This document shows positions 1 to 57,434 of a stretch of DNA of 64,000 nt, one piece after another (within the stretch, counting starts at the first letter, position 1; every line of letters starts with the position of its first letter). Where the stretch lies: NCBI GenBank assembly GCA_004431415.1, contig QPMI01000080.1, positions 1 to 64,000 on the forward strand. Direction: 5' to 3'. A model generated the notes under the pieces. It saw only the letters and a list, made by a program, of their open reading frames with translations. It was not told the DNA's origin and searched no databases. This stretch comes from Cyanophora paradoxa CCMP329 (lineage: Eukaryota; Plantae; Glaucophyta). A program made the position numbers and the translations under genes.

Positions 1-247
1 ACATTCGGACAGGCGTACGACACTGGAGGCGGACTGGGGACCCCAGCAAACCAACGCGGTTATAACGTAACCCCTCGTTCGACATCATCCGGCGGCAGCA
101 CGGATGTCGATTTCTACGGGGCCAACGTCACGGCGGTGAGTCACACTGGCTTTACAGTTAAAGTGAGATTCCAACCAGAATGACGGTCACGCCACCAAAT
201 TGTCAGCTTTTTATTCATTGGACCGCGATCGGCAAGCTGCTATGTAA
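1..247 (+). CDS. C-terminal part of a fibre/receptor-binding protein (gp53-like or H-type-lectin-like domain), frameshifted
   Basis: Frame 1 reads TFGQAY...DFYGANVTAVSHTGFTVKV; a shifted frame ends IHWTAIGK, matching the 'TF..AY ... GFTV ... W.AIG' pattern of this domain. Confidence 0.55.
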
Positions 248-271
248 TCGATTTTCTGATGCAATCCAAAA

Positions 272-1319
272 ATGTCGGTCGCTGTCCCTCTATTTACCTA
301 TGCTGCCAGCGTGAATCACAAGGGCGATCACACGATTAAGGAGACCACCCTCGGAAACCAGGCCACCGAGGCCCCTACAACGCCACGGCCGTCCCCTTTT
401 CCGAGGCCGACCTCGTCCGCGTCGGCGAGCTGCGCTGCGAACAAGATGCGCACGCGGGAGGGCGGTCGGCCGTGCGGGGCGCGTGAGGACGCAGAGGCTC
501 ACCGTCACGAACGGGCCTGGGACGGGAGCGGGTACACCACGAATCAGGTGACCTTTAATGGACTGTGAACGGGGAGGGGAATGCGGCTCTGTATGTGCAA
601 GGAGGCGGAGCAAACGTGGTGGGGGGCTTAGGGTGAGCGGGGCTTCAAACTTGGCGGGCATCGTACATTGGACGATAAGCTGCAAATTACCGGAACGTCA
701 CGTACATAAATGGCGGTGGTTCAGGCGTAGCTATAAAGTACAACAAAACGATAGACTCCTTGTGGGACTCTTGGCGTTGGTGTTACAGGTACTCTATTTA
801 CCTCGGCAATCGAAGGCCCTACTAATGGCCTAAGCATAGCAACACTTCAATCGTTGATAGCGGAAGCGTCAGCGTCAGCTCTGGTCTATCTTGAGAAACA
901 ACGGCACCGAACGACTGCTGTGCGGAACCGTCGGCGTTGGCTCACGGGTCGGCTCATCGTTCGACGCTCACGGGGCGATGGAAACCGAGCCGTTTATCGG
1001 ATGCTCAAGGATACCTGACAAACTCGTCGAGCGATAGCCGCCTGAAGAAAATGTCGCGAGCATGTCGGGCATTCTCCCTCTTCTGCTGCGCTGAATCCCG
1101 TGTCGTTCACCTGGAAGAACACATCTCGGGGGTTCGAAAACGGATTACGGTCTCATCGCACAGGAAGTCCAAGGCGTCTTCCCGAGTCTCGTTTTCGAGA
1201 ACGGGATGGATTTCTCGGGTAAACTACGACAGGCTCATTTCCTGTCGTTGAAGGCAATTCAGGAACTTTCACAAGAAGTTCAAACTCTCAAAGACCAGGT
1301 AGCGGCACTGGCGAGCTGA
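272..1319 (+). CDS. Viral fibre protein with C-terminal Peptidase S74 intramolecular chaperone domain (several frameshifts)
   Basis: Joined frames give GYLTNSSSDSRLKK(N)V...LNPVSFTWK...DYGLIAQEVQGVFP...VNYDRLI..LKAIQELSQEVQTLKDQVAAL*, the canonical S74 motifs plus the terminal coiled coil. Confidence 0.85.
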
Positions 1320-1339
1320 TCTGGAACAACTAGGAATAA

Positions 1340-3022
1340 CTACACCGCGAGTATCACAATTCGACCGTTGCCACCGTCGCTGAAAGACGAGCCACCGTTG
1401 CCGCCCTACAATGCCTGCTGCGTAAGTGAGCGTCTCCGCTATTTCCTGCCACCTGGCCGGACCCAGGATACACCGTAGCATCGTCAAGTTTCCTATGTAG
1501 CTCGAGCCACCGCCACCTCCAAACATTCTTGCTATTGGGTTCTCTGACACTCCGCTCCTGCTGGACCAGAGCCTCCACCGAAGTAACCACCACACACCAC
1601 ACCGAACCTGTAGCCGCTTGAATCAGGCCAGTCTCTCCACCTTGGCGCAAAGTTCCGGGTTGCTGGGCTGGCCCTGAGGCCACAACACCGGCTCCGCCAG
1701 CGGTTTGGGTGCCTCCTTGAGCCGGTATCTCTCCGGTTACTCCAACCAACCCAGCCGCACCACCGGTCACCCCCGCTACTCCCCCGCCGCCATTCGAATC
1801 ACATGTACCCCCACTCCGGCCCTGCAACAACCAAGTCGGTCCTGCAACGCGCTGAATTGCAGAACGACCACCACGGCGCCGTTTTTGTACTCCGGATCGA
1901 CGCTATGGCTCAGCCCTTCACCACTCCGTAGACGGTAGCAGTGCAGTCCCGATACACCTTTGGGCGCCGCATCCACAACAAGGATGAGCGTCTCCCCGAG
2001 GACACAGCCAATGTACCAACTACGCAAGCACCCGGCTCACGGACCCCGTACTGCGCGTTCTCCGCCTCCACCCCGGCCGCCATACGATACACGCACAGCC
2101 ACAGTCCCGTTGGTACTACGAAAGTCTGGTCGGCCCGGTGTAGGAGAATGTACCCAAAACAGGAGCGTTTGCAGTTGTTGCACTGGCAGACGAGGACTGA
2201 GGGCCTTCCTCGCGATCTGGTTGACGCCTTGATGGTGTAAGTGTAAGTGGTTCCGTAAACGGTCGTTGTGTCCGAAAGGGGCTGCTCGTGTCGCTGGCAA
2301 GGACACGCCACCCCTGTAGATGTTGTAGGAGACGGTGACGCCCGTCACGGCACCGACCACTCGAGCACAACAGGCTGTGCTGCCCCGCGCGGGGGTTGCA
2401 GTGAGCCAGTGGGCGCCCCGGGTCGTGGTGACGTACGCCGCAATACTCTTCGGCCCTCCCTCCGTGTTCGTCGCGGAGATCTGGTACTCGTACCTGTACC
2501 CAGACGGTGGTCGTGTCGCTGTAGGAGTTGGTCGCGGAGTCTGTGAGGTAGGCCCGTCTCTGTAAATCTTGTATCCGTCGCTCCGTGGACGCAGTCCAGC
2601 TGAGGCTGACAGGCTGCTGCTGGTCGTTGGGTGCTGATGCCGTCACGTTCGTGGGGCGTTTGGCATAGTCCAGACCAGGAGCGGATCGGACTTGTCGTAT
2701 TCGACACCGCCACGATGCCGGCACCTGGTAAGAGTATTCCGTGCCCACGTAAGAGCAGTGCTATCGTCAATGTACGAGGTAGACAGGGCACTGCTCGCAA
2801 ATCCGATTGGCGTACCGTTCCTGTAAATTCGAATCGAGTCCGCGCCTCCATGGCCACCCAGTTGATTGTGACGACTATGGCGGGTTTCGGGAAGCCCGAA
2901 GACGCGGGGCCGCCCCGGCAATAAAATCGCCGTAGGTCTGGGCGTGGCGGTCGTGAGCGTGGTGTAGGCTTCGATCTGCGGCTGAAGCCGCCTATGCCTT
3001 GGAAGAGAATGTAATTGCTCAT
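1340..3022 (-). CDS. Fibronectin type III repeat protein with C-terminal glycine-rich domain (frameshifted)
   Basis: Repeated FN3 motifs (PTNVTASAP, VSLSWTAST, YNIYRGG, GTTYTYTIKA, GTEYSYQV). The C-terminus has GGGGGSSY and ends DGGNGRIVILAV*. Confidence 0.75.
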
Positions 3023-3408
3023 GGCACCTCGTGGGTGTAGAGAAGCGACTGTGCGTAGGTTGTGGGCGGGGCTTTGCCATCAGAGCCCGTGCTGCTGCTG
3101 CCTGTTCGCGAACCGCCGCCACGCGGTAGAGTCGCTGGGCCCCAACTAAAGGAGAGTCCGTGTAGGTGACGGTTGGCGCATTCACCGTGGCCACGAGATC
3201 CAGGGGCCGTTGATGCTGGTCGCCCTGTACACCTTGTACTTGACGGCGTTGGTGACCGCGACCAGTTCAGCTGAAAGCCGTACGTACTGTTCCCGTTGTT
3301 GAGCACGGAGCCCGATCGCACCTGGGCCTGCCACAGTCAGCGAGATCGGCTCCACGCCATACTGCGGAGCCTGCACACCTGCTTTTTCACGAATACGAAG
3401 CGGGGCAT
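3019..3408 (-). CDS. Small single-FN3-domain protein (frameshifted)
   Basis: Starts MPRFVFVKK at 3408; contains FQLNWS..TNAVKYKVYRATSINGPW..ATVNAPTVTYTDSPL....YRVAAV. Confidence 0.6.
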
Positions 3409-3445
3409 TTTCCTCTACGATCCGAAAAAATATCTGCCCGGGTAA

Positions 3446-4130
3446 ATGACTTCCAACTGGTACCAGACCTCAGCGGCTCACTTGACGTTGGCAACAACAC
3501 CAAGGATTTCGCACGCATACCCTCCGGCAGTTACGTCGACGTCTTTCTGCAGAATCCCGTCGTGATTCAGGTCGTTCAGAACGCCTACGCCACGCCCAAG
3601 ATTTATTCCTACCAGCTCTTCTTCGACCCTCTGAGCTCAGCGCAGAGGTTATCGAGCTGCTGCACGAATCAGGACTCGTGAAAAAGGTGGCACCTGCCAC
3701 GGCCACTGCCAACGTCTTGCGCTGTCTCGAGGTCAAGTTCAGGAGACGGGTACGGCCCCACCGTGAACCGGTACCCCAGTTCTTCGAATCTTCCGGGTAC
3801 GGAATTACCAGATGAGGGTACGCTCAAGGGCGACGTGCTCTTCACGAAATTCAATCCAAGTCCCGCGACCCTGGGGGCCCTCTACACGGGCGGCAACCCA
3901 CGCGGCTCGACTCTACCCCGCTTCCCTTCACCTTTTTCAGGTTCCAGGTCTTCCCCTCTCCTACGCCGCCGACCAGCCCCACTTCAGCACGGGCGCCAGC
4001 CTCTGCGCGGAGCTGCGTGAGTGCTCGATTTCCTACGCGTACGGCACCGACGCTGACTCTGTGCCTGGGGCCCGCGTCATGAACATCGGTGGCGACATCA
4101 CCCTCTTTCACGGATAATCTTTCTCATTTG
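3446..4130 (+). CDS. Hypothetical viral protein, paralogue 1 (frameshifted)
   Basis: Joined frames give MTSNWYQT...VDVFLQNPVVIQVVQNAYATPKIYSYQLFFD...ELLHESGLVKKV...LRCLEVKF...DVLFTKF, sharing motifs with the next gene. Confidence 0.6.
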
Positions 4131-4140
4131 AGGTCGCAAA

Positions 4141-4943
4141 ATGCCGACCACCTCGGCCACCATCGTGAAGACCGTGTCTGCCGGCTCGATCGTCCCCGAT
4201 TTCTACGGCAACGCTGGGAACGTGGCCAACGCAGGGACGGACAAGGTGGAGTGGGACGGAAACTACGCCACCCCGCTCACCGTGAGGGTCCAGAATCCCG
4301 TCATGTTGCGCGTCACCTCCAACGATTTCGAGAATCCCGCCTCCTGCTCCGTGTACGTGTACTTTGACATCGACTCGGGCGTGAGCGCGGATGAGGCGGA
4401 GGCGCTCTGGCTCTCGGGCCTCCTGAAAAGATAGAGCCCTCTGTGCCTGATCGGCCCGCCATTCGCGTGCTCGAACTCAAGTTCACCGCTAACACGCCCT
4501 CACTCGCAATTCGGGAATGGTGCGAATCCGAACATCAAAACGCATTTAGATGGCGCCCTCATCGATGCCACACACAAGACCACGCAGGCCGTTCCTTTGA
4601 GATGTACAACCTCTGGAGATGACCGCAAAGGAGATGATGACGAATGCCACACGGGCGGCGCTCGGGTACCGATTATTCATACGGCGCCTCGAATCCCGTA
4701 CCCAGGTCTGGCCCGGCTCCTCTTCACGAAATTCACTTTCAAATTGTACAACAACATCGCCGGAATGCTACCTCTGGAATGGTCGTGGGCTCTACCCTCA
4801 TGGCCGAACTAATTGAGGCAGAGGCGGACTACACGACTGCGACTACCAACTCGACAGCGCCAGGCGCCGGAGCCGAAGTTTACGTGGCCTGGGAAACGGT
4901 CGGTCGCGAGTACGACACCAAGATTCACACCACTAGCGTCTAG
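4141..4943 (+). CDS. Hypothetical viral protein, paralogue 2 (frameshifted)
   Basis: MPTTSATIVK...LTVRVQNPVMLRVTSNDFENPASCSVYVYFD...EALWLSGLLKR...IRVLELKF...LLFTKF...[23 protein letters not shown]. Confidence 0.6.
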
Positions 4944-5296
4944 ACTGGCTAAGCTGCATTAGCACCTGTGTCGCCTCCATCATCTCCCGAATCTCCTCGC
5001 TCTTCTCCTGTAAATTGGCGTACCCCTCCTCTTCTTGCGAATCTCCGACATTGATGCCCAGCGCAGGTTCTCCTCCTGTAGTCCAGCGGGTTGCCGTTGA
5101 TGTGTTCCACGTAGCGTCCACGTGGCGACTTCCCGAGGATCAGTTGGGAGAGGTAGTGCTTGCGCCCTCCAAACGTCTTGCTCACCCTGTCCCTGTCCAC
5201 TCTCCAGGGAAACTCCAAGGCACTCGGGGGTACGTCCGAGTTGACCAGGACGTTGTAGGCGACGTCTTGCGAGTCGGTGCACCGGAGCAGGGCCAT
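4933..5296 (-). CDS. HNH endonuclease-like protein (HNH_3 type), frameshifted, possibly inactive
   Basis: [29 protein letters not shown](E)NLRW resembles the DHINGNxLDNRxxNLR consensus. Confidence 0.75.
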
Positions 5297-5311
5297 TTTG
5301 CCCTAGGTTCA

Positions 5312-5450
5312 GAAAAACCTGGGACTTGGGACTTGGGACTTGGGACTTGGGACTTGGGACTTGGGACTTGGGACTTGGGACTTGGGAAGAGTTGAAACCC
5401 AGGTCCCGGCCCAGACTTTCTCCAGGATCAGAAATTTGTCAGACAAGTCA
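5312..5450 (+). repeat. Repeat module A: 9 x GGGACTT, then GGAAGAGTT and a conserved spacer
   Basis: Perfect heptamers at 5321-5383, followed by gggaagagttgaaacccaggtcccggcccaga. Confidence 0.95.
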
Positions 5451-5762
5451 GGTGAGTTTTTCTACCGACTTTTTTACTCCTACCACTCCTCATACTCTTT
5501 TTTACTCGTAGTCTTTTTTACTCGTAGTCTTTTTTACTCGTATCCCATCTCGTACCCTCCTTCTCTCGACATCTCACACGAAAACTCCTACCCTCTTCAC
5601 ATCCGTTTTCGGTTGCATACTCTCGTGAGCTTTCATGTCCAGTATCATGCTACAAGTCGTACACCAGTTCAGACTCTACCTCGCTTGAAATCTCACCTGG
5701 AATGTCACAGAAACGTCATATGCAGATTTCGTACCCCTCTACATGTCTGCCCGGTGGTTAGG

Positions 5763-5886
5763 GACTTGGCGCGGCAAACTCTCAGATCCAGAGAGATTCT
5801 GGGCCCAGACCCTGAGTCTAACTCTTCCAAGTCCAAGTCCAAGTCCCAAGTCCAAGTCCAAGTCCAAGTCCAGATCGCGCCAAGTC
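5763..5886 (-). repeat. Repeat module B (inverted relative to A): 7 x GG(G)ACTT plus GGAAGAGTT
   Basis: AAGTCC(C) units at 5829-5871, preceded by aactcttcc; the spacer aligns with that of module A. Confidence 0.95.
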
Positions 5887-5940
5887 GTAACTGAATAGTC
5901 GGCCAATTTTTACAAGTATGTACAATGGAATGACGCAATA

Positions 5941-7001
5941 CTATTTACAGCATCTCAAAGTCAGAGTCATCGTCATCGGAAACCAACTCAATGAGGCCTC
6001 GGGCGCCGACTTAAGGGGAATGCGGGGAAGGGACTGCGCTGCCTGCACCAAGTCCTGCGCTCGCGCTCGCGCTGCGCCGCCAAGGCCGCTGCCGCCTCTG
6101 CTCGCGCTGCTGCTGAGCTCGATGCGCGCCTTGAGCTCGGCCGCCTCCTTCTGCTTGCGCTCGGCGATCCGCGCCTTGTTGATCTGGTACTGGACAAGGC
6201 GCTCGTGGCCGCTTGCGCTCCAACTCTTGCGGAGCTCGTTGCAGAGGACGCGCTTCTCAATGGTCTTGACGTGCTGAGTCAGGCGCTCGCTGTAGTGTGA
6301 CGTCACGCGAGAACGGGCAATGCCGGCGCCGAGCTTCAAGTCCTTCTCGTGTGCCTTGGCGGGGTCCTTGACGCGCTCGGAGTTGTCGGTGAATGACGTA
6401 GTCTCCATGAACTTCTTCTTGACGATTGACTTGGTCTTGATAATGCGGCGCTTGCGAGTCGGGTTTTCGTTGTCGCTTCAGAGTCAGAAGACGACTCAGA
6501 GTCGTATGGAATCGGCACGTCAAAGTCGATGAAGTCGTTGATGTCAGACTCGGCGTCAGAGGCCTCGGACTTGGCGTCATCGGCGGGCTGAGGGCGGGCT
6601 CGGCGACGGGCTGAGGGGCAGATGACGACGATGACGGAGGGGGTAATTCGTGAAGACTTGAGGGGGGTAGGCCCAGGCGAGCGTCTCGGCAGCAGACTCG
6701 GCGAAAAGCTTGGGGTCGCCCAGCCGTTGGCGGTCTTGACCCAGCCGGGGACGGGGGCACGTCGACGGGGGGCTCGGGCTTGGGTTGCTTGGACTTGGAT
6801 TTCTTGGCCTTGGACGTGAAGGCGGACTTGGGGAGAAGTTGCACTTCGGGGCCAGTGGCGCGTAAGATGGCATAATTGTAGATGTACCCAGAGCGTCGGC
6901 GCGCTGCTCCATCTCAGGGGTAGCCCTTGAGTGCCACCGGAGTTAGCCCACGTTGCTTGGACAAAGGCGAAGTCCTCGGCAAGCTCAGCGGGAATCGACA
7001 T
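5941..7001 (-). CDS. Hypothetical viral protein with basic/Pro-rich, acidic and coiled-coil regions (frameshifted)
   Basis: Overlapping ORFs 6336-7034, 6257-6844 and 5941-6408 join into one protein: MSIPAELAEDF...KAKKSKSKQPKPEPP...SDAESDINDFIDFD...KARIAERKQKEAAELKARIE. Confidence 0.55.
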
Positions 7002-7458
7002 CTGCGCAAAGGGAAAAGAAATCAGCAAAGGCAAAACGTGAGGTGACTGTGAGGGCGGACTTGTGAAAATTCGGAGAGGCAGGGTTTCCTTGGGCTGAGA
7101 GAAGGCGGCGAACCCGTTTCAAGAGTGAGGCAAAATGGCGGCGGACCGCGGTTTTGTGGGCGAATTTTTTCCTGGGCTAGTTCGCAACGGAAAACGTTGC
7201 CAACTGGCCTGAAAAAGCCAAATTTAGCGTTGGACCGAAGACAGAAAAAGGAGCCGGCCTGACGGAAATTGCCCGAGTGCGTCCGCCGAAGGTCGAGTCT
7301 CGGATGGGGGTACACCTCAGGGGCCCCCCTGGCCCTCACCCTGGTAGTACCCTCTCAAAGGGATTTTCGAAGCCGTACAATTCTTGGTAAGTCTCGTAAT
7401 CCGGGCTGTACCCTCACAATCTGCGGGAGCCCCATTGAAAGCCTCCGTCTATCCTCTC

Positions 7459-7803
7459 TCAATTCCTGCGGAAAAGTCTACGGTCTTCTCGAGCTTCGCG
7501 CGTCACGCCAGCTGGGCGTGGTCTATGATTGTTAGGGTTGTCGTAGCCTGGTCCCACCAGCCTCACGAAATTTTCGCGTATGGCCTCGGGGAGACTCTGG
7601 AAACGGTTCGTTGCGTGGAACTCGATCCATTCATTGAATCGACGCGGATATTGACGGATGACTTCAAGCACGCCCTGTGTGTTGGGCTCTGGTGTTATGT
7701 CGGGAATGTCATGTCCTGTGAGGTGCCAACGCCAGAACTCGCGCAGCCTCTCGAATGCCATATGCAACTCAAAGGGGAAATCGTAATAGAGATTGCCTGA
7801 CAT
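7459..7803 (-). CDS. Hypothetical viral protein (about 114 aa)
   Basis: MSGNLYYDFPFELHMAFERLREFWRWHL... after an AAAAATG start; complex, non-repetitive composition. Confidence 0.55.
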   Translation of the reverse strand: MSGNLYYDFPFELHMAFERLREFWRWHLTGHDIPDITPEPNTQGVLEVIRQYPRRFNEWIEFHATNRFQSLPEAIRENFVRLVGPGYDNPNNHRPRPAGVTREAREDRRLFRRN

Positions 7804-7829
7804 TTTTCTCCCCTCCGAAAATTTCCCGT

Positions 7830-7918
7830 TTTGAGTCCAGACTCTGATTCCAACTCTTCCCAAGTCCAAGTCCCAAGTCCCAAGTCCCAAGTCCAAGTCC
7901 CAGGTCCATTTTTCTCCC
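7830..7918 (-). repeat. Repeat module C (same orientation as B): 6 x GG(G)ACTT plus GGAAGAGTT
   Basis: AAGTCC(C) units at 7862-7901, preceded by caactcttccc. Confidence 0.95.
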
Positions 7919-8033
7919 ATTTCAGTCCGAGATTTTGCCCAAGTCCAAATCCGGGCCGGGATTCGAACCCTCGTTTTCGGTCGATTTCACGCGTGAAAAA
8001 CGCACTTTTCGGCCTTTTCCGATTTTTCCTTTC

Positions 8034-8165
8034 TCGCGATCGCAGAAATGCCCCCGATCTCGAAATCGCGATCGAAAAGGGTCGCGATCGGGAGAAAGTC
8101 GCGATCACCAGGGTCGCGATCGGGTCGCGATCGCCGCGATCGCCAGCCTCGGAGGGGGTACCCCC
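8034..8165. repeat. Cluster of 7 (T/C)CGCGATC boxes ending in the palindrome GGGGGTACCCCC; probable terminal region of the element
   Basis: Copies start at 8034, 8066, 8082, 8099, 8114, 8125 and 8134; the 12 bp palindrome is at 8154-8165. Confidence 0.85.
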
Positions 8166-10378
8166 ACAGCTGTTGCGGCGGTTATAAGAACCTCCGCAAT
8201 CCAAGCGTCACTTCCGAGTCTCGAGCTCTCGGAGTTGCCTTTTCGCGTTTGGCCCATTGATGGCCCTCCTATATAGGCCGCCTACTTAGTAGTACCGTAG
8301 TACGGCGCCTAGGCGCCGCGGCCGCGCCGCTATACTAGGAGCTAGCTACCGGTAGGCTAGCTAGCGGCGAGCCTAGCTAGCTATAGCGCTAGCGCGCGCC
8401 CGCCGCCGAGGCCGGCGCCCGGCGCCGCCGGCCCGCGCCGGGCCAGCGGGCCACGGCCGCGGGCCAGCGCCGGCGCGTGGCCCAGTGGCTGGCAGTGGCC
8501 ATGGGGGGCTTTGACGAGCAGGTCCGCCCCCGCCGGGCCGCGGGCCCGCCCCGGGCCCTCCCCAGAGCCCGTCGAAGCTTATATATAATTAAGCCTGAAC
8601 TTCGGAAGCGGACGCGGCTCCGGATCCCGTTCCTATATAGCTAGGCCTCGTCCTCGTCCTCCCGCCCCTCCTCCTCCCCCGCCTCCCCTAAACCCCCCCC
8701 CTTCCCCGGCCCCACCGGGTACCCCGGGCCCTCATGCCACCCCACCCCCTCTATGGGTGCCCCGGCCATGCCACCCCCCGCCCCCGGCCCCCGCGGGAGT
8801 TGGAGCGGCTCACCAGGCGGGGCCGCCGGGCGGAGGCGCGGCAGCTGCAGGCGCCGGCGCGGCTCGCCGGCGCCGGCGGGGCGCCAGAGGCCGGGCGCGG
8901 CGGGCGCGCGGCGTTTACACGGAGAAATTGGAAACTCAGAAGAGGAAGCAATATTAATCTCAATGTAGACTCTGAAATACTATTGAATAGGGCTCAAACT
9001 ATCGAAAAAATTGAAAAGCACTGCGGCACACGTGCACCATGGCCAGATGTAAATCTAGATATCCCCGATATAGCGCTATACAGTTAACACTCATCTATAT
9101 ATGGTCCCGCGCATGCGCAGTGGCGCCGGCTCGGCTGTTAATGTCGACGTCTTGGGGCGTGGCCATGGGTGAGATCGAGAGGGGGAAATTGAAGGGGCGG
9201 GGGGGTTACGGGGGGGCGGAGCGGGGGTACGATCATGGGGCGGGAATTCGAACCTTCGTTGTGTCGTCGATAGCCCCTCCTCTCTGGAATCATAATTTTT
9301 TTAATAAGCTGTGCATGTACCCCGGGCCGACGCCGGGCCAGGGGAGCCCGGGGTACCGGTCCCGGGGAGCCGGCGCGCGAGGGCGCTGCCATGGACGGCG
9401 GAGGAGAGGCTGGGGCAAGGAGGGGGGGGGGGGGGGGGGGGGGGAAACAACCCAGGGGGAGGCGCCGGCTTCTCGCTCAGCAGAACGTTCACGTGGCGCT
9501 GTTCGTGCAGAGCCTCGGAGCCCGGCCCCTAAGAGGCTGCAGCCGCGCGAGCGAGTCAGCCTGCGAGAACATCCGAGTCCGACTCGGCGAGGGGAGGAAG
9601 GGGCTTGCAATTGAAGGAGCAGCCTAAGAGCCCACTTGCTCATGCATATGGAGTGAAAATTGAAGCCGGGCCCGATCGCGATCGGGAATGCTTCCGCGCC
9701 AAGCAGGCGTTGTGCGCGGCGCCTGACCCAGTGACCTAGCCGGGGACGTCGACAAGGACCGGCGCCGCCGAGCGGCGCGGCCGCCAAACCGCAGGGCCGG
9801 ATCATATCACAGATCCTATGCGAGGCGCTTCTATAGCTGGGCTTGTGCACGCACTCCGAGGCTCTCCAAGCAGCGCGTTAACGTTGACCGGGCAGGCTGC
9901 AAGGTGGGAAGGCACGCAGTCATCGACCTGCCGTGGCCCGCCTGCTGAACGTTCGCCGCAGCTCGCTTGATTCTGTGCCTGCGCCGGCGGGCCGGCGTGC
10001 ACGTGCGTTTGCGGCTGAGCTCAATCTACTCAATCTGTGGCGGCCGAGCTCCGCCGAGCACTCCGGCAGTATATATATACGTAGCTCAATCTGCGCGTTG
10101 ACCGGGCTGGAGCTGAGGACTAGCTGTATGTTGAGCTGCCAGGATGAGCTATCTGTCCAGGCTTCGTTCAGCAGTTGCGAGTGTTGCGATTGTTGCGTTG
10201 CGGCGCCGGCGCAGTTGCGAGTCACTTGCGACGATTGCGGCGTCATGCGGCGACATGCGCGCCCGTCGGGGTACAGCCGACCCAGGCGGGGTATATTCAT
10301 AATCAACAGCCCGGCTTCTGCCGCGGTAAATAAACAGCAGCGAAACAGCCCGGGTCTTCCGGAAGACTAGAGAGAGAC

Positions 10379-40826: not shown

Positions 40827-43800
40827 ATGGCGGGGGCTGGAGGGACGGTGATCAACAGCGCGGGGGAGACGATTCCCCTCTGCGACGATGCTCTCCGCTC
40901 GGAAGAAGTCCTTCACAAGGTTCGCCGCGTCGCCCTCAGCGGATAAGTTTCATCGTGACGCACCTGTCTGAGCTTGCGCACACCGTCCTTGCTTTGCGGT
41001 TGCGCGTACTGATCAAGATCCTTGTCGTTTCAGATTCACTGGGAGCAGTGTGCGCTGATTGCCTTCGATCTGCTCGCTTCGACCCGCGGCCGCGCGTGCC
41101 CCGCTATCCTCCGAGGGTTGCTGACTTCGCCCCTCGCGCAGTGCACCTCATACAAACGATTCAACCTTTCGGCGTGCTCTTCGTTCTAGAGCTAGGAGCT
41201 GACGGGGGCAACCCGGGCAAGGCTGGCCAGCAGCGCCCCGTCGTCGTCCGTCAAGTCAGCGCGAACGTTTCGGACCTTCTCGGCGCAAGTGTCACGCCCG
41301 CGGATGTCATCGGGAAGGATGTATCGGAGCTGTATTCGCGCTTCCTTCCGGCAACGAGCGCGGCCGTGCGGCAGCGAATCGAGGGCCAGAGCAGCGGGCC
41401 GTTCCTGTTCAACCTCGCCGACTCGAACCCGAACGACCCGGGCGGATGGATCGGCAACGTGCATCCGCCCGTCGATGGGTTGCCTGACATCTACATGCTC
41501 GAGGTCCTGCGATCCGAGAACGGCGCCGTCGACTCGCTGGACATTCTTGCGGACAGCCAGCACGCCGTGCAGTGTCTGCAGGACGCGGACAGCGCAGACT
41601 CGCTCTGCCAGGTCCGCGGCGCCGGCTACCGCCGCCGCGCCAACGCGGGAGAACGAACGCTCGCCCGCGCGTAGGTCCTTGTGAAGGAGATCGCCGGCAT
41701 CACGGGCTTCGACCGCGTCATGTGCGCTGCCGCGCGCTGCGATCGCCCCCGTCGCCCCCTCCTCCTCTCGGGCGCTCACGCTCCGCTCCGCGCAGGGTGT
41801 ACAAGTTCGATGCCGAGGTGCGCCCGCGCCCTCTGCCGTCGTTCCTTCGTTCGCTTTCTCCGAGCGCGCTGACCGCGTCGACCCCGCCCGCCTGCCGTCT
41901 CCGCCATCGACGCCACAGGGCCACGTGCGTCTGTCCTCCCGCGCCGCCGCCCGGGCTGGCCAGCCACGGCCGCCGTGGCGTTCGTCGCTGATCCTTCTGT
42001 CCGCCCGCAGGGCCAAGTCATCGCGGAGTCTCTCAAGGGCGACCAGTACGAGCCGTACATGAACCTCAAATAGTGCGCTTCGCTTCACGTCGCCCCTAAA
42101 TTCAGATCGTCCGCGTGGCCGTGGCCGACCCCCCCCGCCCTCCAGCCCCGCGACCGACGTGCCCTTCGTCGCTCGGGCGCTCTACTGCAAGACTAAGTTC
42201 CGCCTTATCCCCGACGTCGGTGAGCGCAAATTCGAGGCGGCGGCGGTGGCGCCCGGCCCTCGCCCGCCCGCCCCCAATCTGACTCTGTCCTCCGCAGAGT
42301 ACCAGCCCGTGCCGCTCGTCTCGGCCCCTGCGCAACATGGGGGTGCGGGCCTCCTTGTCCTTCGCGATCGTTCAGGACGACAAGTGCTGGTGCGAGCAAG
42401 CGAGCCGCGCCGCTCTGTTGTCGCCCGCTGCCGCCGAGCCCGAGCCACGCGCAGGGGCCTCTGCTGCTGCCACCACTACGAGCCCAGGGCCCTCCCCTGC
42501 GCAACATGGGGGTGCGGGCCTCCTTGTCCTTCGCGATCGTTCAGGACGACAAGTGCTGGTGCGAGCAAGCGAGCCGCGCCGCTCTGTTGTCGCCCGCTGC
42601 CGCCGAGCCCGAGCCACGCGCAGGGGCCTCTGCTGCTGCCACCACTACGAGCCCAGGGCCCTCCCCTACCACGTCATGGTGCGCGGGACTGCACCCTGCC
42701 TTCCTTGCCCCGCGCGCGCCCCGGCCGGCTGATCGTCGAGCCTTCCTTCCTTCCTCCCCCCTCCTCGCAGGCGGCCTGCGTCACCCTCGTCTCGATGTTC
42801 CAGGCCTCGATGCAGGCCAAGACGCACAAGCTGCGGCAGGAGTACGAGATGAAGGCGCGCTCGATCCAGGCGCAGATCCTGAACCAGTCCTGCGTCAACC
42901 TGGACTACGTGGACGCCCTCATCAACTGCCCGCCGAGCGTCCTGGACCTCGTCGAGTCCTCGGGCGCCTCGATCGTGGCCGGAGGCGACGTCTACTCGCT
43001 GGGCGTCGCGCCCAGCAAGGACCAGGTGCTGGCCTTCACGCACTGGCTCCGCGACGAGACGGCGTCGGCCCCCGCCGACGAGATCTGGATGTCCACGTGC
43101 CTCGTCCGGGACTACCCCGCCGCCTCGGCCTTTAAGCACGTCGCGTCGGGCGTCCTCGCCGTCGCCATCTCGCGCGAGCAGTCCGAGTTCGTCCTGTGGT
43201 GGCGCAGCGAGGTCTCCAAGGCCGTCCACTGGGCCGGCACGCCCGACAAGTCCTTCGTCGTCTCCAGCAAGGACGTTCTCCACCCCCGCAACTCGTTTGA
43301 GCGCTGGACGGCCCTCGTGACGGACCGCTGCGAGGTTCGGCGGAGATTTGATTTGATCCGGATTCGATCCGGAGGAGAGGATTCGATCCGACTCCCGTTC
43401 CAACTTCGTTCGCAGGTGTGGAGTGACGCGGACATTGCCGCGGCGCGCATCTTCCGCATCACAGTCGGAGACCTGAACGTCCGCATCTCGGCCGAGGTGC
43501 TTCCTACCCTCCCCCGCCCCCCTCCCTCGAAAGCAAAGCAAGACCCGGCACTGACTGACCGCGCACCCGCCCGCCCGCAGCTCAAAGTGCGCGGCGAGAT
43601 CCTCGGAAAGCTGAACGCGGAGCTAGAGGAGTCCAACTCGAAGCTGGCGCGCCCCGTTCTCTTTATTTCTTTCCGGCCCCGCGCCTGCGTTACGGAGCTG
43701 ACGAGCTTGGCCGCGCAGCGCTACGTCGCCTCGGAGCTGACGACCCTCATCCAAACGGTGCCCGTGCCAGTCATCGGCATGAACAAGACCATGAGGATCG

Positions 43801-49640: not shown

Positions 49641-49725
49641 AGCCGCTTTAGTTTCGCGCGCGCGCTCATGATCGATTGCCATTGCAGGTTGCGGGCACGT
49701 CGACGTCGTCGACCGCGGCGCGCGC

Positions 49726-52029
49726 ATGATGAGCTCGAAGTCATCGCAGAAACGAGCTCGGGATGCCGATCCGGCGGCGCCCGCGGCCGCGGCCGCGCCC
49801 GTGCACGTTGGCGGCTCCGACGTCGACACCTCCGAAGACGGCGAAAACTTCATTTGCGCTCTCCCCGACGTACTCCTGGAGCGCATTTTCGGCGAGCACC
49901 TCGGCGCAGCCGAATCGTGGCGAGCCGCAAGGCCGACCTGCCGGCGACTGCGCGCCATCGTGGAAAGCACATCAATATCATTCGAGTCGTTGGCGGCCTC
50001 GGGGAGCCGGGCGGAGGCGTTCGAGGCGCTGGCGGCGGTCATTCGGAGCGGCAAGCTGCGTCTGCGCCGCGGCGGGACAGCTTCGGTCGCTCTGGAGGTC
50101 AGCCAGCCTATAGCTAGCGACGTCGATGATCTAGATCTGGAGGTGCGCGGCAACTTCGTCGGGCTCGCCATGTACGACGCGCTGCGGGCGTGCACGGTGG
50201 CGACGGGCGGCCTGAAGGCAGCATCCGTGTTCTTCAGAAGCGGGTGCCTCTTACCCAGGTCAGACCGCACTGGCGTACTTCGTGCGTTTGCAAATCAGGA
50301 CGGCTTGCAATTTAAATTAATTTGCAAGTGCTTTTTCCACAGAGAAAGCGAGAGGAGAGATTTTCGCGGCTTCAACATGGCGACCGCGCACATTCTCGGC
50401 GTCCTCTTCGCCCTTCGGCCGCCGCCATCGGCGTCCAGCCCCGTCCGCAGCATCAGCATCAGTTGTGGTGGCAAGCGCTGCGCAATGTCGGACCCCTTCA
50501 GTCTCGCTCCGGGCACTCTGCTGCAGGCTCTCTCGCCCTTCTCCGGCCTGCAGTCACTGGTCCTGCCGGACTTTTTCGAAGTGGATGGGGAGCTCGCGGC
50601 CGAGATCGCGCGGGCCTGCCCCGCGCTCCGCAGCATTGTGCTCTTTTTCCACGATTTCGCTCTCACGAATCTCGGGGACCTCGACGGCCTCGAAGAGCTG
50701 CGAAAGTGGCGCCCCTCGCCATGGCTCTTCGGAGCTATAAACGGTTCGATGAACGGGTACCAATATTGCGGCGACGACATTTTCTTTCCGGCCTGCGAAG
50801 ACGGCCTCCTGCCGCTGTTCAGTGCTGCCGGCAACACTCTTCGCGTCCTGGGCGACCGGTGTGCATTATACAATCAATATTATAATTAGTTATATTCGGT
50901 CGGAAATAATCTTAAATATATTTATGATTTATGATTAGCGATCTCCCATGGCCACTCCGCTTCGAAATTCACCGCGCGTGCGCACATGTACAGCGCGGCT
51001 CGGACCGATTTCGCGGCGGATCCCTTCCAGTGGGGCGAGAACCGCCGCCTGGCGCGCGCACCGGCCATTCTCGACCGCGAGGTGCTGAAAGAGCTGCGGG
51101 GCCTCCCGCGCCTCCAACGCCTGGACTTCGCGGACGGCCTGCTGATCCATGTGCGTGTACGCTTATAATTATACATGTTGACGTCTAGCTATATATAGAT
51201 ATGCGCCGGCGCCTCCGGTATCGACATCGACGTGCACATTATTTTTGTGTTTTGATTAAATTGGAGCGTGCAGCGCGCGCGGAAGGCGGTGGCGGCGCTG
51301 GGAGATTGCCCCGCCCTGGAGGAGCTCTCCGCCTGTGTTGTGGTCGACGCCGACGCCCACGTCTCCGGCATGCACGGTCTTGCGGACGCCCTTGAGCGCT
51401 CTGCGAGCCTGCGCCACCTCGACCTCTACTTCGGTCCCCCACTTCTTATTTAATTCTTCACTCGTCTTATTTTTCTCTCCTGATCGGCGGCCGCAGAAAT
51501 CGACACGAAGGCGACGTACTCGCCCGCGGACCTAGGCCTGGAGCGGATCATTCAGGCCCTGGAGCGGCTCCTGCGCGCCGCGGCGCCCGTCCTCCGCTCC
51601 TCCCGCGTCGACCACAAGGACCCCGGGGACTACACGCTCCCCAACGGGACTTTCGCGGCCGCCCTGACGGCCGCCGGCCCGCTGGGCGCCGAGCTCGCCG
51701 AGGCGTACGCCTCGGACCCGAAGGAGCGCCCGCAGTGGCGCCGCTCCGGCAGCCGCGTCCTTGCCGGATCGATATCGGCGGGCGCAGGCGCGGCCACGGC
51801 CGCGGCTGCGGGCACAGGAACCGGTCCCAGCGCTAGCGCTAGCGCTGCCCCAGAGCTCGAGCCCATCGATATCGACATCGCGAGTGCCGATCGCGATGAG
51901 GTCGACGTCACTGATCAAGAGGAGGACGTCGACTCGGACTCAGCTGCAGCTGAGAGCTCAGGCGAGAGCGATCGCGAGGAGTACCAGAAGTGGATATCTC
52001 GACAATCGAGATCAGCGTATTATTACTAA
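49726..52029 (+). CDS. F-box-like plus degenerate LRR protein, few introns
   Basis: FICALPDVLLERIFGEHLGAAESWRAARPTCRRLRAIV; LQSLVLP, CPALRSIVL, LPRLQRLDF, CPALEELS, LRHLDL. Confidence 0.75.
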
Positions 52030-54751: not shown

Positions 54752-54823
54752 GCGCACATAGTCCAACGGTTAGGATATTGCCCTTCCAAGGCAGTGACCC
54801 GGGTTCGACTCCCGGTGTGCGCA
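54752..54823 (+). tRNA. tRNA-Gly (anticodon TCC)
   Basis: GCGCACA/TGTGCGC acceptor stem, GTCC/GGAT D-arm, TTGCC-CT-TCC-AA-GGCAG anticodon arm, CCGGG-TTCGACT-CCCGG T-arm; no encoded CCA. Confidence 0.97.
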
Positions 54824-55693: not shown

Positions 55694-56479
55694 CATCCTG
55701 AGCCCGAACTGCGTTCGCCCGCGCTCAGACCTGACGGCGTTGCGCGCCGGCTCGCTCGCGCACCCGCTCGCCTCCTCCGTCTCTTACTTACGCTTCGGTC
55801 TATGAACCGCTAGCGCTGGCGGCCTGCAGCTGGTGCACGCGCGTGAGCTCAAGCTCGAGCCCCGCGCGGCCGGCGCCCGGCGGGGCGCAGCATGTGCACG
55901 CGCGGAACTATAGGTGCTGAGGATCTGGAATTGGTTTTAATTTGCGGCTACCATGCATATGGCCTCGGCTCCCTCCTCGCCTCTAGATCTTCCGTAGACC
56001 CTAGGCCTGGACTCTCCGCCTGCCACTGTCTACGGGGTACCTCCGCCGCCGCGTTCGGCGCCGGCTGTCAGTACTTTGCTCGGTAGCTCCCCCGTTGTGG
56101 CTCCTCGGGGGGCCTCTTCGTCGTCGTCGTTCGCTGGGTTCCGGCTCCGGGTCAGATATCGATTTCTCGCCGGGCTTACCTTCTCCTGGCTCTGCTCCTG
56201 GGCCCTCAACTCCGGGACCGGCTTCCCCGATCTCCTCCCGGACTCGTGGTCGTACCCGTCGCCGGCTTGCCGAGCCTGCGTCTCCTTCTACTTCCCTCCG
56301 GCGGTTTGCCGGGCCGGACCCTCCGGCCTTTGTTCTTGATCCCGGACGTCGACTGCCGCCTTTGCCTTCGTCTTCTGCTTCGCTGGTCGTATCCCGCCGG
56401 CGCCGGCGTACTTCGTCTTATAGTTTAGTTCGAATTCGGTCTGGTTCGGATTCTGATCGTAGTGTTGATGCTAGAGTTA

Positions 56480-57015
56480 GTTTCAATACTAGCTATAGTC
56501 CTCGTGCTCGACCTGTTGTTCGCCGTCGTTTGCAGTTCGACTGCCCGCCTCGACCCCGGCCGGCTTTAGTGATTCCTTTGAGTGTCCTTTTGCCTGCTCT
56601 TGATCCGCCTGCTCCGCCTCCTGTGTCCTCGTCGACCTCGTGCCGTAGCTCTGCCCTTTCGCATCGTCCTGCTTCGCCTCCGCCTCCACGTCGTCTTGTT
56701 GTTCCTCTTACTTATCTGCTTCCTGTTCTTTATCTTTCTCAATTTTGTCCTCCGCTTCTTAGTGATGTAATTCCTTCCGATATTGATGGTATCTCTATAG
56801 TTAGCTCTGGCTCTTCTTCGTGTCAGTCATCCTCTGTCCCTAGATCTGCTCGATTTATCTACTCTTCTCGATCTGTCTTGAGCTCTGTGTCTTTTCTTTT
56901 TTATTGTCAATTTAGGCTCTTTGTCTTATCTTTCTTCGTGCTCTTGTCGACGTCTTAGTTATTTTGCTTTTTTGTCTTTATGCCCCCTGGGCTGCCCCCG
57001 CAGTGCTGGTGTCTA
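56480..57015 (-). repeat. Decayed interspersed repeat, copy 3 (inverted)
   Basis: The reverse complement shares ctaagacgtcgac, tgagaaagata, aggaagcaga and agaggaa with copy 2. Confidence 0.5.
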
Positions 57016-57434
57016 GAGACTGTGGCCCGTAATTCACCAAAAACAAATAGAGCTGTGCATGCACATGGTGCATATATGCATATGCATGCTCAATTATAAG
57101 CTTATATATGGCTCGACGCGGTAGCGTCATGATCATGGCGTCGACGTCGACGTACGCGTCGGTCAACGTCGTAACCTGGAGCTCAGTAAATCTACTTCAC
57201 TATTCGAATCTAAAAAGCGATCAGGCACTCCTGAATTACGAGATAATGCTCAGCGGAAGACGAAATGCTGGGGATGTCAGCCCAGCGGCTAGCGCTGGCA
57301 ACGTGACACTGACACATTGCACGGAATCTAAAATTACGAGATGATGCTCAGCCGAAGACGAAATACTGCGAAGGTCAGCTCAACGGCTAGCAACCGAAAA
57401 CTGCGGCGCGTGACACGACCGGACTTCGGCGGGA

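What the first reader, a model, noticed from the sequence alone, without database searches (positions are those of the whole stretch)
1..8290. Integrated DNA virus with a phage-like fibre module in a probable glaucophyte genome
Seen: 8 kb of compact genes (lectin-like fibre tip, S74-chaperoned fibre, two FN3 proteins, HNH, several unknowns) abutting intron-rich host DNA. Known: S74 and FN3/Gly-rich fibre genes occur in Polinton-like viruses, virophages and larger algal viruses. Inference: this is the right arm of an endogenous virus, possibly of an undescribed lineage, since viruses of glaucophytes are poorly known.
Basis: partly seen in the sequence, partly recalled or inferred. Interest (0 to 1): 0.8.

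Follow-up and report, generated by a model that had tools for sequence, protein, structure and literature searches.

The report
Multi-copy virus end in glaucophyte genome
This is the right-hand end of a virus-like element repeated at dozens of places in the genome of an alga (likely Cyanophora paradoxa), carrying likely attachment-fibre genes and two predicted DNA-binding proteins; integrated viruses are already counted in this alga, so it is likely one more family of a known kind.

Summary
Real and integrated, but not a first. Bases 1-8275 differ from the host (GC 57% vs 68%). In two DNA runs, contigs of the end reach depth 2,900 against 40-65 for the flank, and 4-5 contigs per run leave position 8275 into other, TA-rich flanks. 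Homologues lie on at least 42 Cyanophora paradoxa contigs in conserved order. The frameshifts look like assembly errors: in two genes all 16 breaks are base losses, with no stops and 468 of 480 codons identical to intact copies. S74 is supported, HNH weak, FN3 and lectin only by eye. Two unknowns are paralogues predicted to fold, weakly, like T7-type ssDNA-binding proteins. Capsid, ATPase and integrase lie outside the window, so the class is untested; a mriyavirus-like branch is slightly favoured over a classical Polinton-like virus. Published surveys already count 366 capsid genes and 156 such elements in this host group. This scan noted a probably identical family on other pieces of the same genome.

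The parts
1..245 (+). C-terminal end of a giant protein (1,395-1,682 aa in other copies): long charged, probably coiled-coil body, then phage-tail repeats and a lectin-like tip; likely a virion fibre
   Evidence: 75-82% identity to P0053-P0057; intact copies hit PHROGs minor tail/tail proteins at residues ~1400-1590, E 3e-7 to 1e-5; no Pfam hit; lectin label by eye
272..1319 (+). Fibre protein with C-terminal S74 chaperone and coiled coil (frameshifted in this assembly)
   Evidence: PF13884 E 2e-4; PHROGs tail fibre E 2e-7
1338..3022 (-). Large protein with about three FN3-like repeats and a Gly-rich C-terminal domain (frameshifted; limits approximate)
   Evidence: motifs read by eye in six-frame translation; Pfam and phage tblastn negative
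3025..3400 (-). Small protein with one FN3-like repeat (limits approximate)
   Evidence: motifs read by eye; no Pfam hit
3446..4117 (+). Paralogue D (226 aa when intact); predicted OB fold like T7-type ssDNA-binding proteins
   Evidence: 209 of 219 codons identical to P0044; model pLDDT 69, pTM 0.75; best folds Enc34 SSB Z 4.0, T7 gp2.5 Z 3.9; viral Foldseek E 6e-5 to 4e-3
4141..4943 (+). Paralogue E (270 aa when intact), 29% identical to D; same predicted fold
   Evidence: 259 of 261 codons identical to P0030; D-E BLASTP E 1e-16; low-confidence model (pLDDT 37) matched DUF2815 Z 6.9, Enc34 SSB Z 6.0, T7 gp2.5 Z 5.9
4950..5296 (-). Probable HNH endonuclease (frameshifted)
   Evidence: PF13392 E 0.046; weak tblastn to annotated phage HNH genes
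5320..5387 (.). (TGGGACT)n array, 9.7 copies; inverted relative to the two arrays below
5791..5876 (.). Second array (TCCAAG/TCCCAAG) with a shared unique flank
   Evidence: 81% direct repeat with 7829-7860; 74% inverted repeat with 5385-5422
5941..7001 (-). Unknown low-complexity gene of about 350 codons with a basic stretch; preceded by a pyrimidine tract ending in CAG that resembles a splice acceptor
   Evidence: sequence; no Pfam, PHROGs or Atlas hit; splicing untested
7340..7803 (-). Unknown gene of about 150 codons (3' limit approximate)
   Evidence: no relatives found
7829..7908 (.). Third (TCCCAAG)n array
8034..8132 (+). Subterminal array of six TCGCGATC motifs in one orientation; likely protein-binding sites (origin or end recognition)
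   Evidence: 6 of the window's 17 matches lie in 99 bases; 5.0 expected in 64 kb; DNA fold of 8030-8150 z -3.4
8251..8275 (.). Right terminus: conserved end at ...CT (8270) followed by ATATA; junction with host DNA
   Evidence: depth falls from thousands to 40-65; 4 (X1) and 5 (X2) contigs continue from 8275 into other TA-starting sequences; single copy in the window

Best explanation
Bases 1-8275 are the right end of a repeated element inserted at a TA-rich site in an algal chromosome, likely a young provirus of a small double-stranded DNA virus on the mriyavirus-like side of the Polinton-like-virus continuum. Shown: a fixed end shared by many loci, tens of near-identical copies, conserved gene order. 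Inferred: the giant protein, the S74 protein (which would trimerise and shed its chaperone) and the FN3/Gly-rich proteins would form virion fibres that bind the cell surface; the two predicted ssDNA-binding proteins would coat the displaced strand during strand-displacement or rolling-circle copying; the TCGCGATC and TCCCAAG arrays would be binding sites for the replication or integration protein; an element-encoded nuclease (HUH-type or integrase, left of the window) would paste whole copies into TA runs. The frameshifts are likely long-read assembly errors. That it is an integrated multi-copy viral end is about 0.95; the confidence given is for the whole statement including the branch.
For: End contigs at depth 2,900.3 (7990-8202, no differences) and 5,043.5 against 40.4 for the flank in X1; several different flanks at 8275 in both DNA runs, consensus starting TATA. 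D/E homologues on at least 42 named contigs, 84-100% identical in the two main subfamilies; the fibre gene lies within 4 gene numbers of D or E for 8 of 12 fibre records. Both paralogue models rank T7-type SSBs first. A T7-type SSB is described as conserved in gamadviruses and several giant-virus families (PMC11253617). Unchecked scan notes describe a family in this genome with fibres, an SSB pair, repeat arrays, HUH genes and TA-rich sites: a lead, not evidence.
Against: No capsid, ATPase, helicase, HUH or integrase gene is in the window, so no defining gene was tested. The SSB fold is weak (Z 4.0 on the better model, 6.9 on the poor one; no PDB Foldseek hit at E<=0.001), and the Atlas pointed instead to CRESS-virus capsids at 0.83-0.86 (lead only). 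S74, HNH and H-lectin fibres are documented in elements called PLVs in this host. Mriyaviruses are described as lacking integration genes. No listed contig bridges the junction by 31 letters on both sides; the best has 19 inside the element. Sequence look-ups did not link this window to the scan notes.
Confidence: 0.5

Rival explanations
1. Classical Polinton-like virus: TIR-bounded, inserted by an rve integrase with a 5-6 bp target duplication (ATATA or ATATAG), copied by pPolB or a primase-helicase.
For: S74 in 37, HNH_3 in 40 and rve in 85 of 156 Glaucocystophyceae elements (PMC12220804 Table S6, columns mapped by position); a Cyanophora PTR-PTR-H_lectin fibre is reported in a PLV. End depth of 72-125 times the flank against at least 42 contigs fits two ends per element. 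A ...CT-3' end fits Polinton termini (recalled).
Against: The listed other flanks share ATATA and go on TA-rich, which suggests a TA-run target preference and not random sites (12 of 139 loose-end rows shown). No SSB column is among that table's PLV marker genes.
Confidence: 0.35
2. Capsid-less satellite or virus-derived transposon that keeps fibre and replication genes and borrows capsid or integrase from another resident virus family.
For: No capsid gene in 8.3 kb; an unchecked scan note found none in 18 kb of a similar element.
Against: Three or four fibre-type genes kept in order across many loci argue for a virion of its own; only part of the element was seen.
Confidence: 0.1
3. Decayed viral relic whose frameshifts are real.
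Against: 16 of 16 breaks in D and E are base losses, 0 insertions, 0 stops, 468 of 480 codons identical; the host flank shows the same missing C/G letters against contigs, 22 gap letters in 1,147; intact identical copies exist (P0030, four or more accessions).
Confidence: 0.03
4. Bacterial phage contaminant joined to host DNA by a chimeric assembly.
For: S74 and tail-repeat domains are phage-like; no listed contig meets the 31-letter bridging rule.
Against: No blastn match in 50,697 phage records, no relative in GTDB genomes; the same end meets many different flanks in two runs, and one contig runs from 19 letters inside the end through the flank; homologues lie on dozens of host contigs.
Confidence: 0.02

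Closest known systems
Endogenous small dsDNA viruses of Cyanophora paradoxa (PMC10120064: 366 MCP hits in two clusters of 272 and 94; PMC12220804: 156 Glaucocystophyceae PLVs)
   Same: Same host species by homology; multi-copy integration; lower GC than host; S74, HNH and lectin-tipped fibres; apparent frameshifts that such surveys attribute largely to assembly errors.
   Different: Whether this family is among those counted could not be checked; none of the six capsid contigs shown is among the contig names carrying D, E or the fibre. The paralogous SSB-like pair is not among the marker genes of the rows seen.
Gamadviridae / Mriyaviricetes (PMC11253617) and mriyavirus-like Zora, VC134, VC218 groups (10.64898/2026.06.19.733378)
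   Same: T7-type OB-fold SSB (PEV_26 in gamadviruses) is predicted here too; algal hosts; the related groups include integrating members.
   Different: Two tandem SSB-like paralogues here; defining MCP, ATPase, VLTF2/3 and HUH not seen in the window; mriyaviruses proper are said to lack integration genes.
T7 gp2.5 / Enc34-type ssDNA-binding proteins (PDB 1je5, 5odk, 4klk; ASFV CP312R 8hw5)
   Same: Top structural neighbours of both paralogue models.
   Different: 9-11% identity, rmsd 4-7 A, Z 4-7; no sequence-profile match; variable Thr/Ala/Gly-rich loops and no clear acidic tail (tail feature recalled).

Membership tests
Endogenous DNA virus (general) | Fixed terminus joined to host DNA at many loci | tested here: met
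   sharp depth drop at 8275 and several different flanks in 2 of 2 DNA runs
Endogenous DNA virus (general) | Virion-type genes in conserved order | tested here: met
   S74 and tail-repeat hits; order kept for 8 of 12 fibre records
Polinton-like virus | Double jelly-roll major capsid, penton and A32-like ATPase | not testable with these tools
   left of the window; no genome held; no related locus retrieved
Polinton-like virus | Terminal inverted repeats and 5-6 bp target duplication | tested here: inconclusive
   only one end is in the window; depth ratio is compatible with TIRs but does not show them
Polinton-like virus | rve or tyrosine integrase; pPolB or primase-helicase | not testable with these tools
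   not in 1-8400; rest of the element unavailable
Mriyaviricetes / Gamadviridae | HUH endonuclease (duplicated in gamadviruses) | not testable with these tools
   none in the window; claimed only by unchecked scan notes for another piece
Mriyaviricetes / Gamadviridae | Giant-virus-type MCP, ATPase, VLTF2 and VLTF3 | not testable with these tools
   left of the window
Mriyaviricetes / Gamadviridae | T7-type OB-fold SSB (conserved in gamadviruses, not unique to them) | tested here: inconclusive
   top hits for both paralogues but Z 4.0-6.9
Tailed bacteriophage (contaminant) | Phage or prokaryote relatives; no host junctions | tested here: not met
   negative; many host junctions

The most novel reading that the evidence does not exclude
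A glaucophyte-specific lineage of mriyavirus-like dwarf viruses, still intact and spreading, that has no classical integrase and pastes its whole genome into TA runs with its own HUH nickase, Helitron-fashion, and that carries a duplicated ssDNA-binding gene and a 1,600-residue coiled-coil fibre with a phage-tail lectin tip.
Probability: 0.25. Interest if true: 0.7.

Novelty: new member of a known kind. Interest (0 to 1): 0.38.

Why it matters
A young family with intact, near-identical copies in a cultured model alga is a candidate for induction, which could yield a glaucophyte virus particle for study. The precise end and TA-rich target make the integration mechanism directly testable: a target duplication points to an rve integrase, its absence to HUH-type pasting, which would be new for a virus of this size. 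The case also shows that broken genes in this assembly mostly reflect missing bases, not decay.

Tried and rejected
No whole genome was held, so the left arm was unreachable. Relatives with context: IMG/VR scans with A1, P0030, P0056, the 7462-7803 frame, P0046 and the terminal 20-mer found none; JGI metagenomes none; GTDB none. An HMM of E over 1.84 billion representatives gave 9 hits: 8 Cyanophora, 1 unnamed Logan record. The idea that D/E are pentons or CRESS-like capsids (Atlas 0.83-0.86, recognition 1412) was dropped: no jelly-roll appeared among the rows listed, which does not exclude it. PDB sequence searches were blank. Expression: no RNA holder listed on record; runs guessed as RNA held 0.15-0.21 of the words and could be DNA, so nothing is concluded. 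No sigma-70 promoters, no Rfam hit in the element; no notable hairpin in 5400-5880 (z -1.9 to 1.0). Literature searches for Cyanophora with Mriyaviricetes, Gamadviridae or NCLDV-like dwarf found 0 papers; one search listed none joining Cyanophora to these viruses; one search found none for PLV with SSB, tape measure and fiber together. Supplements of the two bioRxiv preprints were not seen and may list Cyanophora elements. I first read the 272 and 94 capsid counts as GKS1 and GKS2; by column position they fall under 'Iterative HMM searches', so I do not label them.
Full report

2. Host. The gene at 4141-4943 (E) has 14 homologues among longer proteins, 12 with EukProt names; cluster listings name them Cyanophora paradoxa. 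Counting contig names, E or its upstream paralogue D occurs on at least 42 contigs. Full-length E copies are 99-100% (4), 91% (1), 84-86% (7) and 65-67% (2) identical to P0030; two unnamed records are 62-66%. The first 245 bases end a 1,395-1,682 aa protein whose last 250 residues hit phage minor-tail families. For 8 of 12 fibre records a D or E gene lies within four gene numbers on the same contig.

3. Integration and copy number. Twenty runs of one coded organism hold part of 3000-9500, 14 of them 0.60-0.62 of the words. Laying contigs on 7910-9400: in X1 a contig on 7990-8202 has depth 2,900.3 with no difference, one on 8180-8232 has 5,043.5, and the flank contig 40.4, a rough ratio of 72-125; X2 shows 2,250-2,900 against 64.6 for variant contigs. 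The tool warns that depth is no copy number, but the order agrees with 42 or more contigs. At 8275, 4 (X1) and 5 (X2) contigs go on for 255 letters or more into other sequence that starts TATA; one leaves at 8266 into a TA run (12 of 139 loose-end rows shown). X2's flank contig begins at 8257, 19 letters inside the element, and runs through 9400; this falls short of the tool's 31-letter rule for a bridge. X1's flank contig begins exactly at 8276, which could be an empty-site branch or an error tip; unexplained. The conserved end reads ...CT at 8270 followed by ATATA; whether ATATA is element, target or duplication needs the left end. No phage or prokaryote relative was found.

4. Intact or decayed? 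Against intact database copies, D shows 209 of 219 and E 259 of 261 identical codons, no stops, and 16 frame breaks, all losses of one or two bases, none an insertion (one search gave the same for P0006). In the single-copy flank the contigs carry C or G letters that the window lacks, 22 gap letters in 1,147. The simplest reading is long-read assembly error. It is indirect for the coding part, where no reads were laid. PMC10120064 section 7 reports the same artefact in other protists.

5. The unknown pair. D and E are paralogues (29% over 201 residues, E 1e-16) with no Pfam, PHROGs or PDB sequence match and only 9 hits in 1.84 billion representatives. A poor model of an E relative (pLDDT 37) matched DUF2815 (Z 6.9, rmsd 6.7, 131 aligned), Enc34 SSB (Z 6.0) and T7 gp2.5 (Z 5.9). 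A better model of D (pLDDT 69, pTM 0.75) again ranked Enc34 SSB (Z 4.0, rmsd 4.2, 115 aligned) and gp2.5 (Z 3.9) first, over a list of OB folds; viral Foldseek gave three hits at E<=0.001 (two unnamed, one uncharacterised Pandoravirus protein) and then phage ssDNA-binding proteins at E 2e-3 to 9e-3; PDB Foldseek had none at E<=0.001, with Enc34 SSB in the top four rows. Against this, the Atlas listed CRESS-virus capsid-like clusters at 0.83-0.86, below its reliable range. An OB-fold ssDNA-binding pair is the best reading and is weak.

6. Repeats. A unit ending in (TCCCAAG)n occurs three times, once inverted (5320-5422, 5791-5876, 7829-7908), and six TCGCGATC motifs lie in 8034-8132, 140 bases from the end, in a stretch that folds at z -3.4. 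They are likely protein-binding sites; this is inference.

7. Mechanism. Shown: fixed end, many loci, young copies, kept gene order. Inferred: fibres for cell attachment, with S74 as a self-cleaving trimerisation chaperone (PMC12220804 section 13); ssDNA-binding proteins for strand-displacement or rolling-circle copying; an element-encoded nuclease that inserts whole copies at TA runs. No capsid, ATPase, replicase or integrase gene is in the window and no related locus could be fetched, so class membership is untested. I put a mriyavirus-like branch at 0.5 and a classical Polinton-like virus at 0.35. For the first: the T7-type SSB, described as conserved in gamadviruses (PMC11253617), the TA-run target, and unchecked scan notes on other pieces of this genome that describe fibres, an SSB pair, repeat arrays, two HUH genes and TA-rich sites. 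Those notes moved my reading, but sequence look-ups did not tie them to this window. For the second: S74, HNH and lectin fibres are documented in this host's PLVs. A 2026 preprint treats the two as a continuum.

8. What is known. PMC10120064 (outline, sections 5, 7, 9; supplement rows of Tables S1, S2, S4): 366 capsid hits in C. paradoxa, in clusters of 272 and 94, with best matches to giant-virus-type capsids. PMC12220804 (passages, first part of section 13, supplement rows): 156 Glaucocystophyceae elements, with S74 in 37, HNH_3 in 40 and rve in 85 (columns mapped by position and checked against the percentage row). PMC12344493 (passages): giant-virus endogenous elements in C. paradoxa, with methylated genes mostly silent. 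PMC11253617 (passages and section 6 part 2), 10.64898/2026.06.19.733378 (passages and section 6) and 10.64898/2026.10.13.758929 (passages): no mention of Cyanophora in the main text; preprint supplements were not seen.

9. Verdict. A genuine, young, high-copy endogenous virus end in a glaucophyte. The phenomenon is published for this host; this family's gene set and precise TA-flanked end are not described in what I could read. New member of a known kind, interest 0.38; 0.7 if HUH-type pasting without an integrase is shown.

Noticed in passing
window:40712-45436 (+): Host phytochrome gene (PAS_2, PHY, HisKA, HATPase_c) containing a perfect 169-bp tandem duplication at 42325-42662, possibly an assembly artefact.
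   Followed up: no
window:54752-55707: tRNA-Gly(TCC) at 54752-54823 followed by three tandem 271-bp units, 87-95% alike.
   Followed up: no
window:22072-23370 (-): Deoxynucleoside kinase gene in at least two pieces (Pfam dNK E 1e-18 and 1e-12).
   Followed up: no
window:8276: In run X1 the single-copy flank contig starts exactly at the junction, while in X2 it starts 19 letters inside the element; may mark an empty-site allele or excision in X1.
   Followed up: partly
window:8215-8275: An 8,148-base contig in both DNA runs carries only this 61-base end piece (4 differences) in its interior: a possible solo terminus or sister-family end.
   Followed up: no
P0035 (another copy): Its predicted protein runs from gene E directly into the translated TCCCAAG array: a deletion at the array or a false splice in the gene model.
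   Followed up: no
window:7339 and 7002 (-): GTGAG donor-like and pyrimidine-CAG acceptor-like sites flank a 340-base gap between the two unknown terminal genes; part of the downstream gene has host-like composition.
   Followed up: partly
window:48000-53300 and 56400-57400: Further lower-GC stretches (49-60%), including an intron-broken gene at about 49700-52000 without a Pfam hit and a strongly T-skewed segment near 56-57 kb.
   Followed up: no
window:19074-19405: Three tandem 106-108 bp units, 95-97% alike.
   Followed up: no
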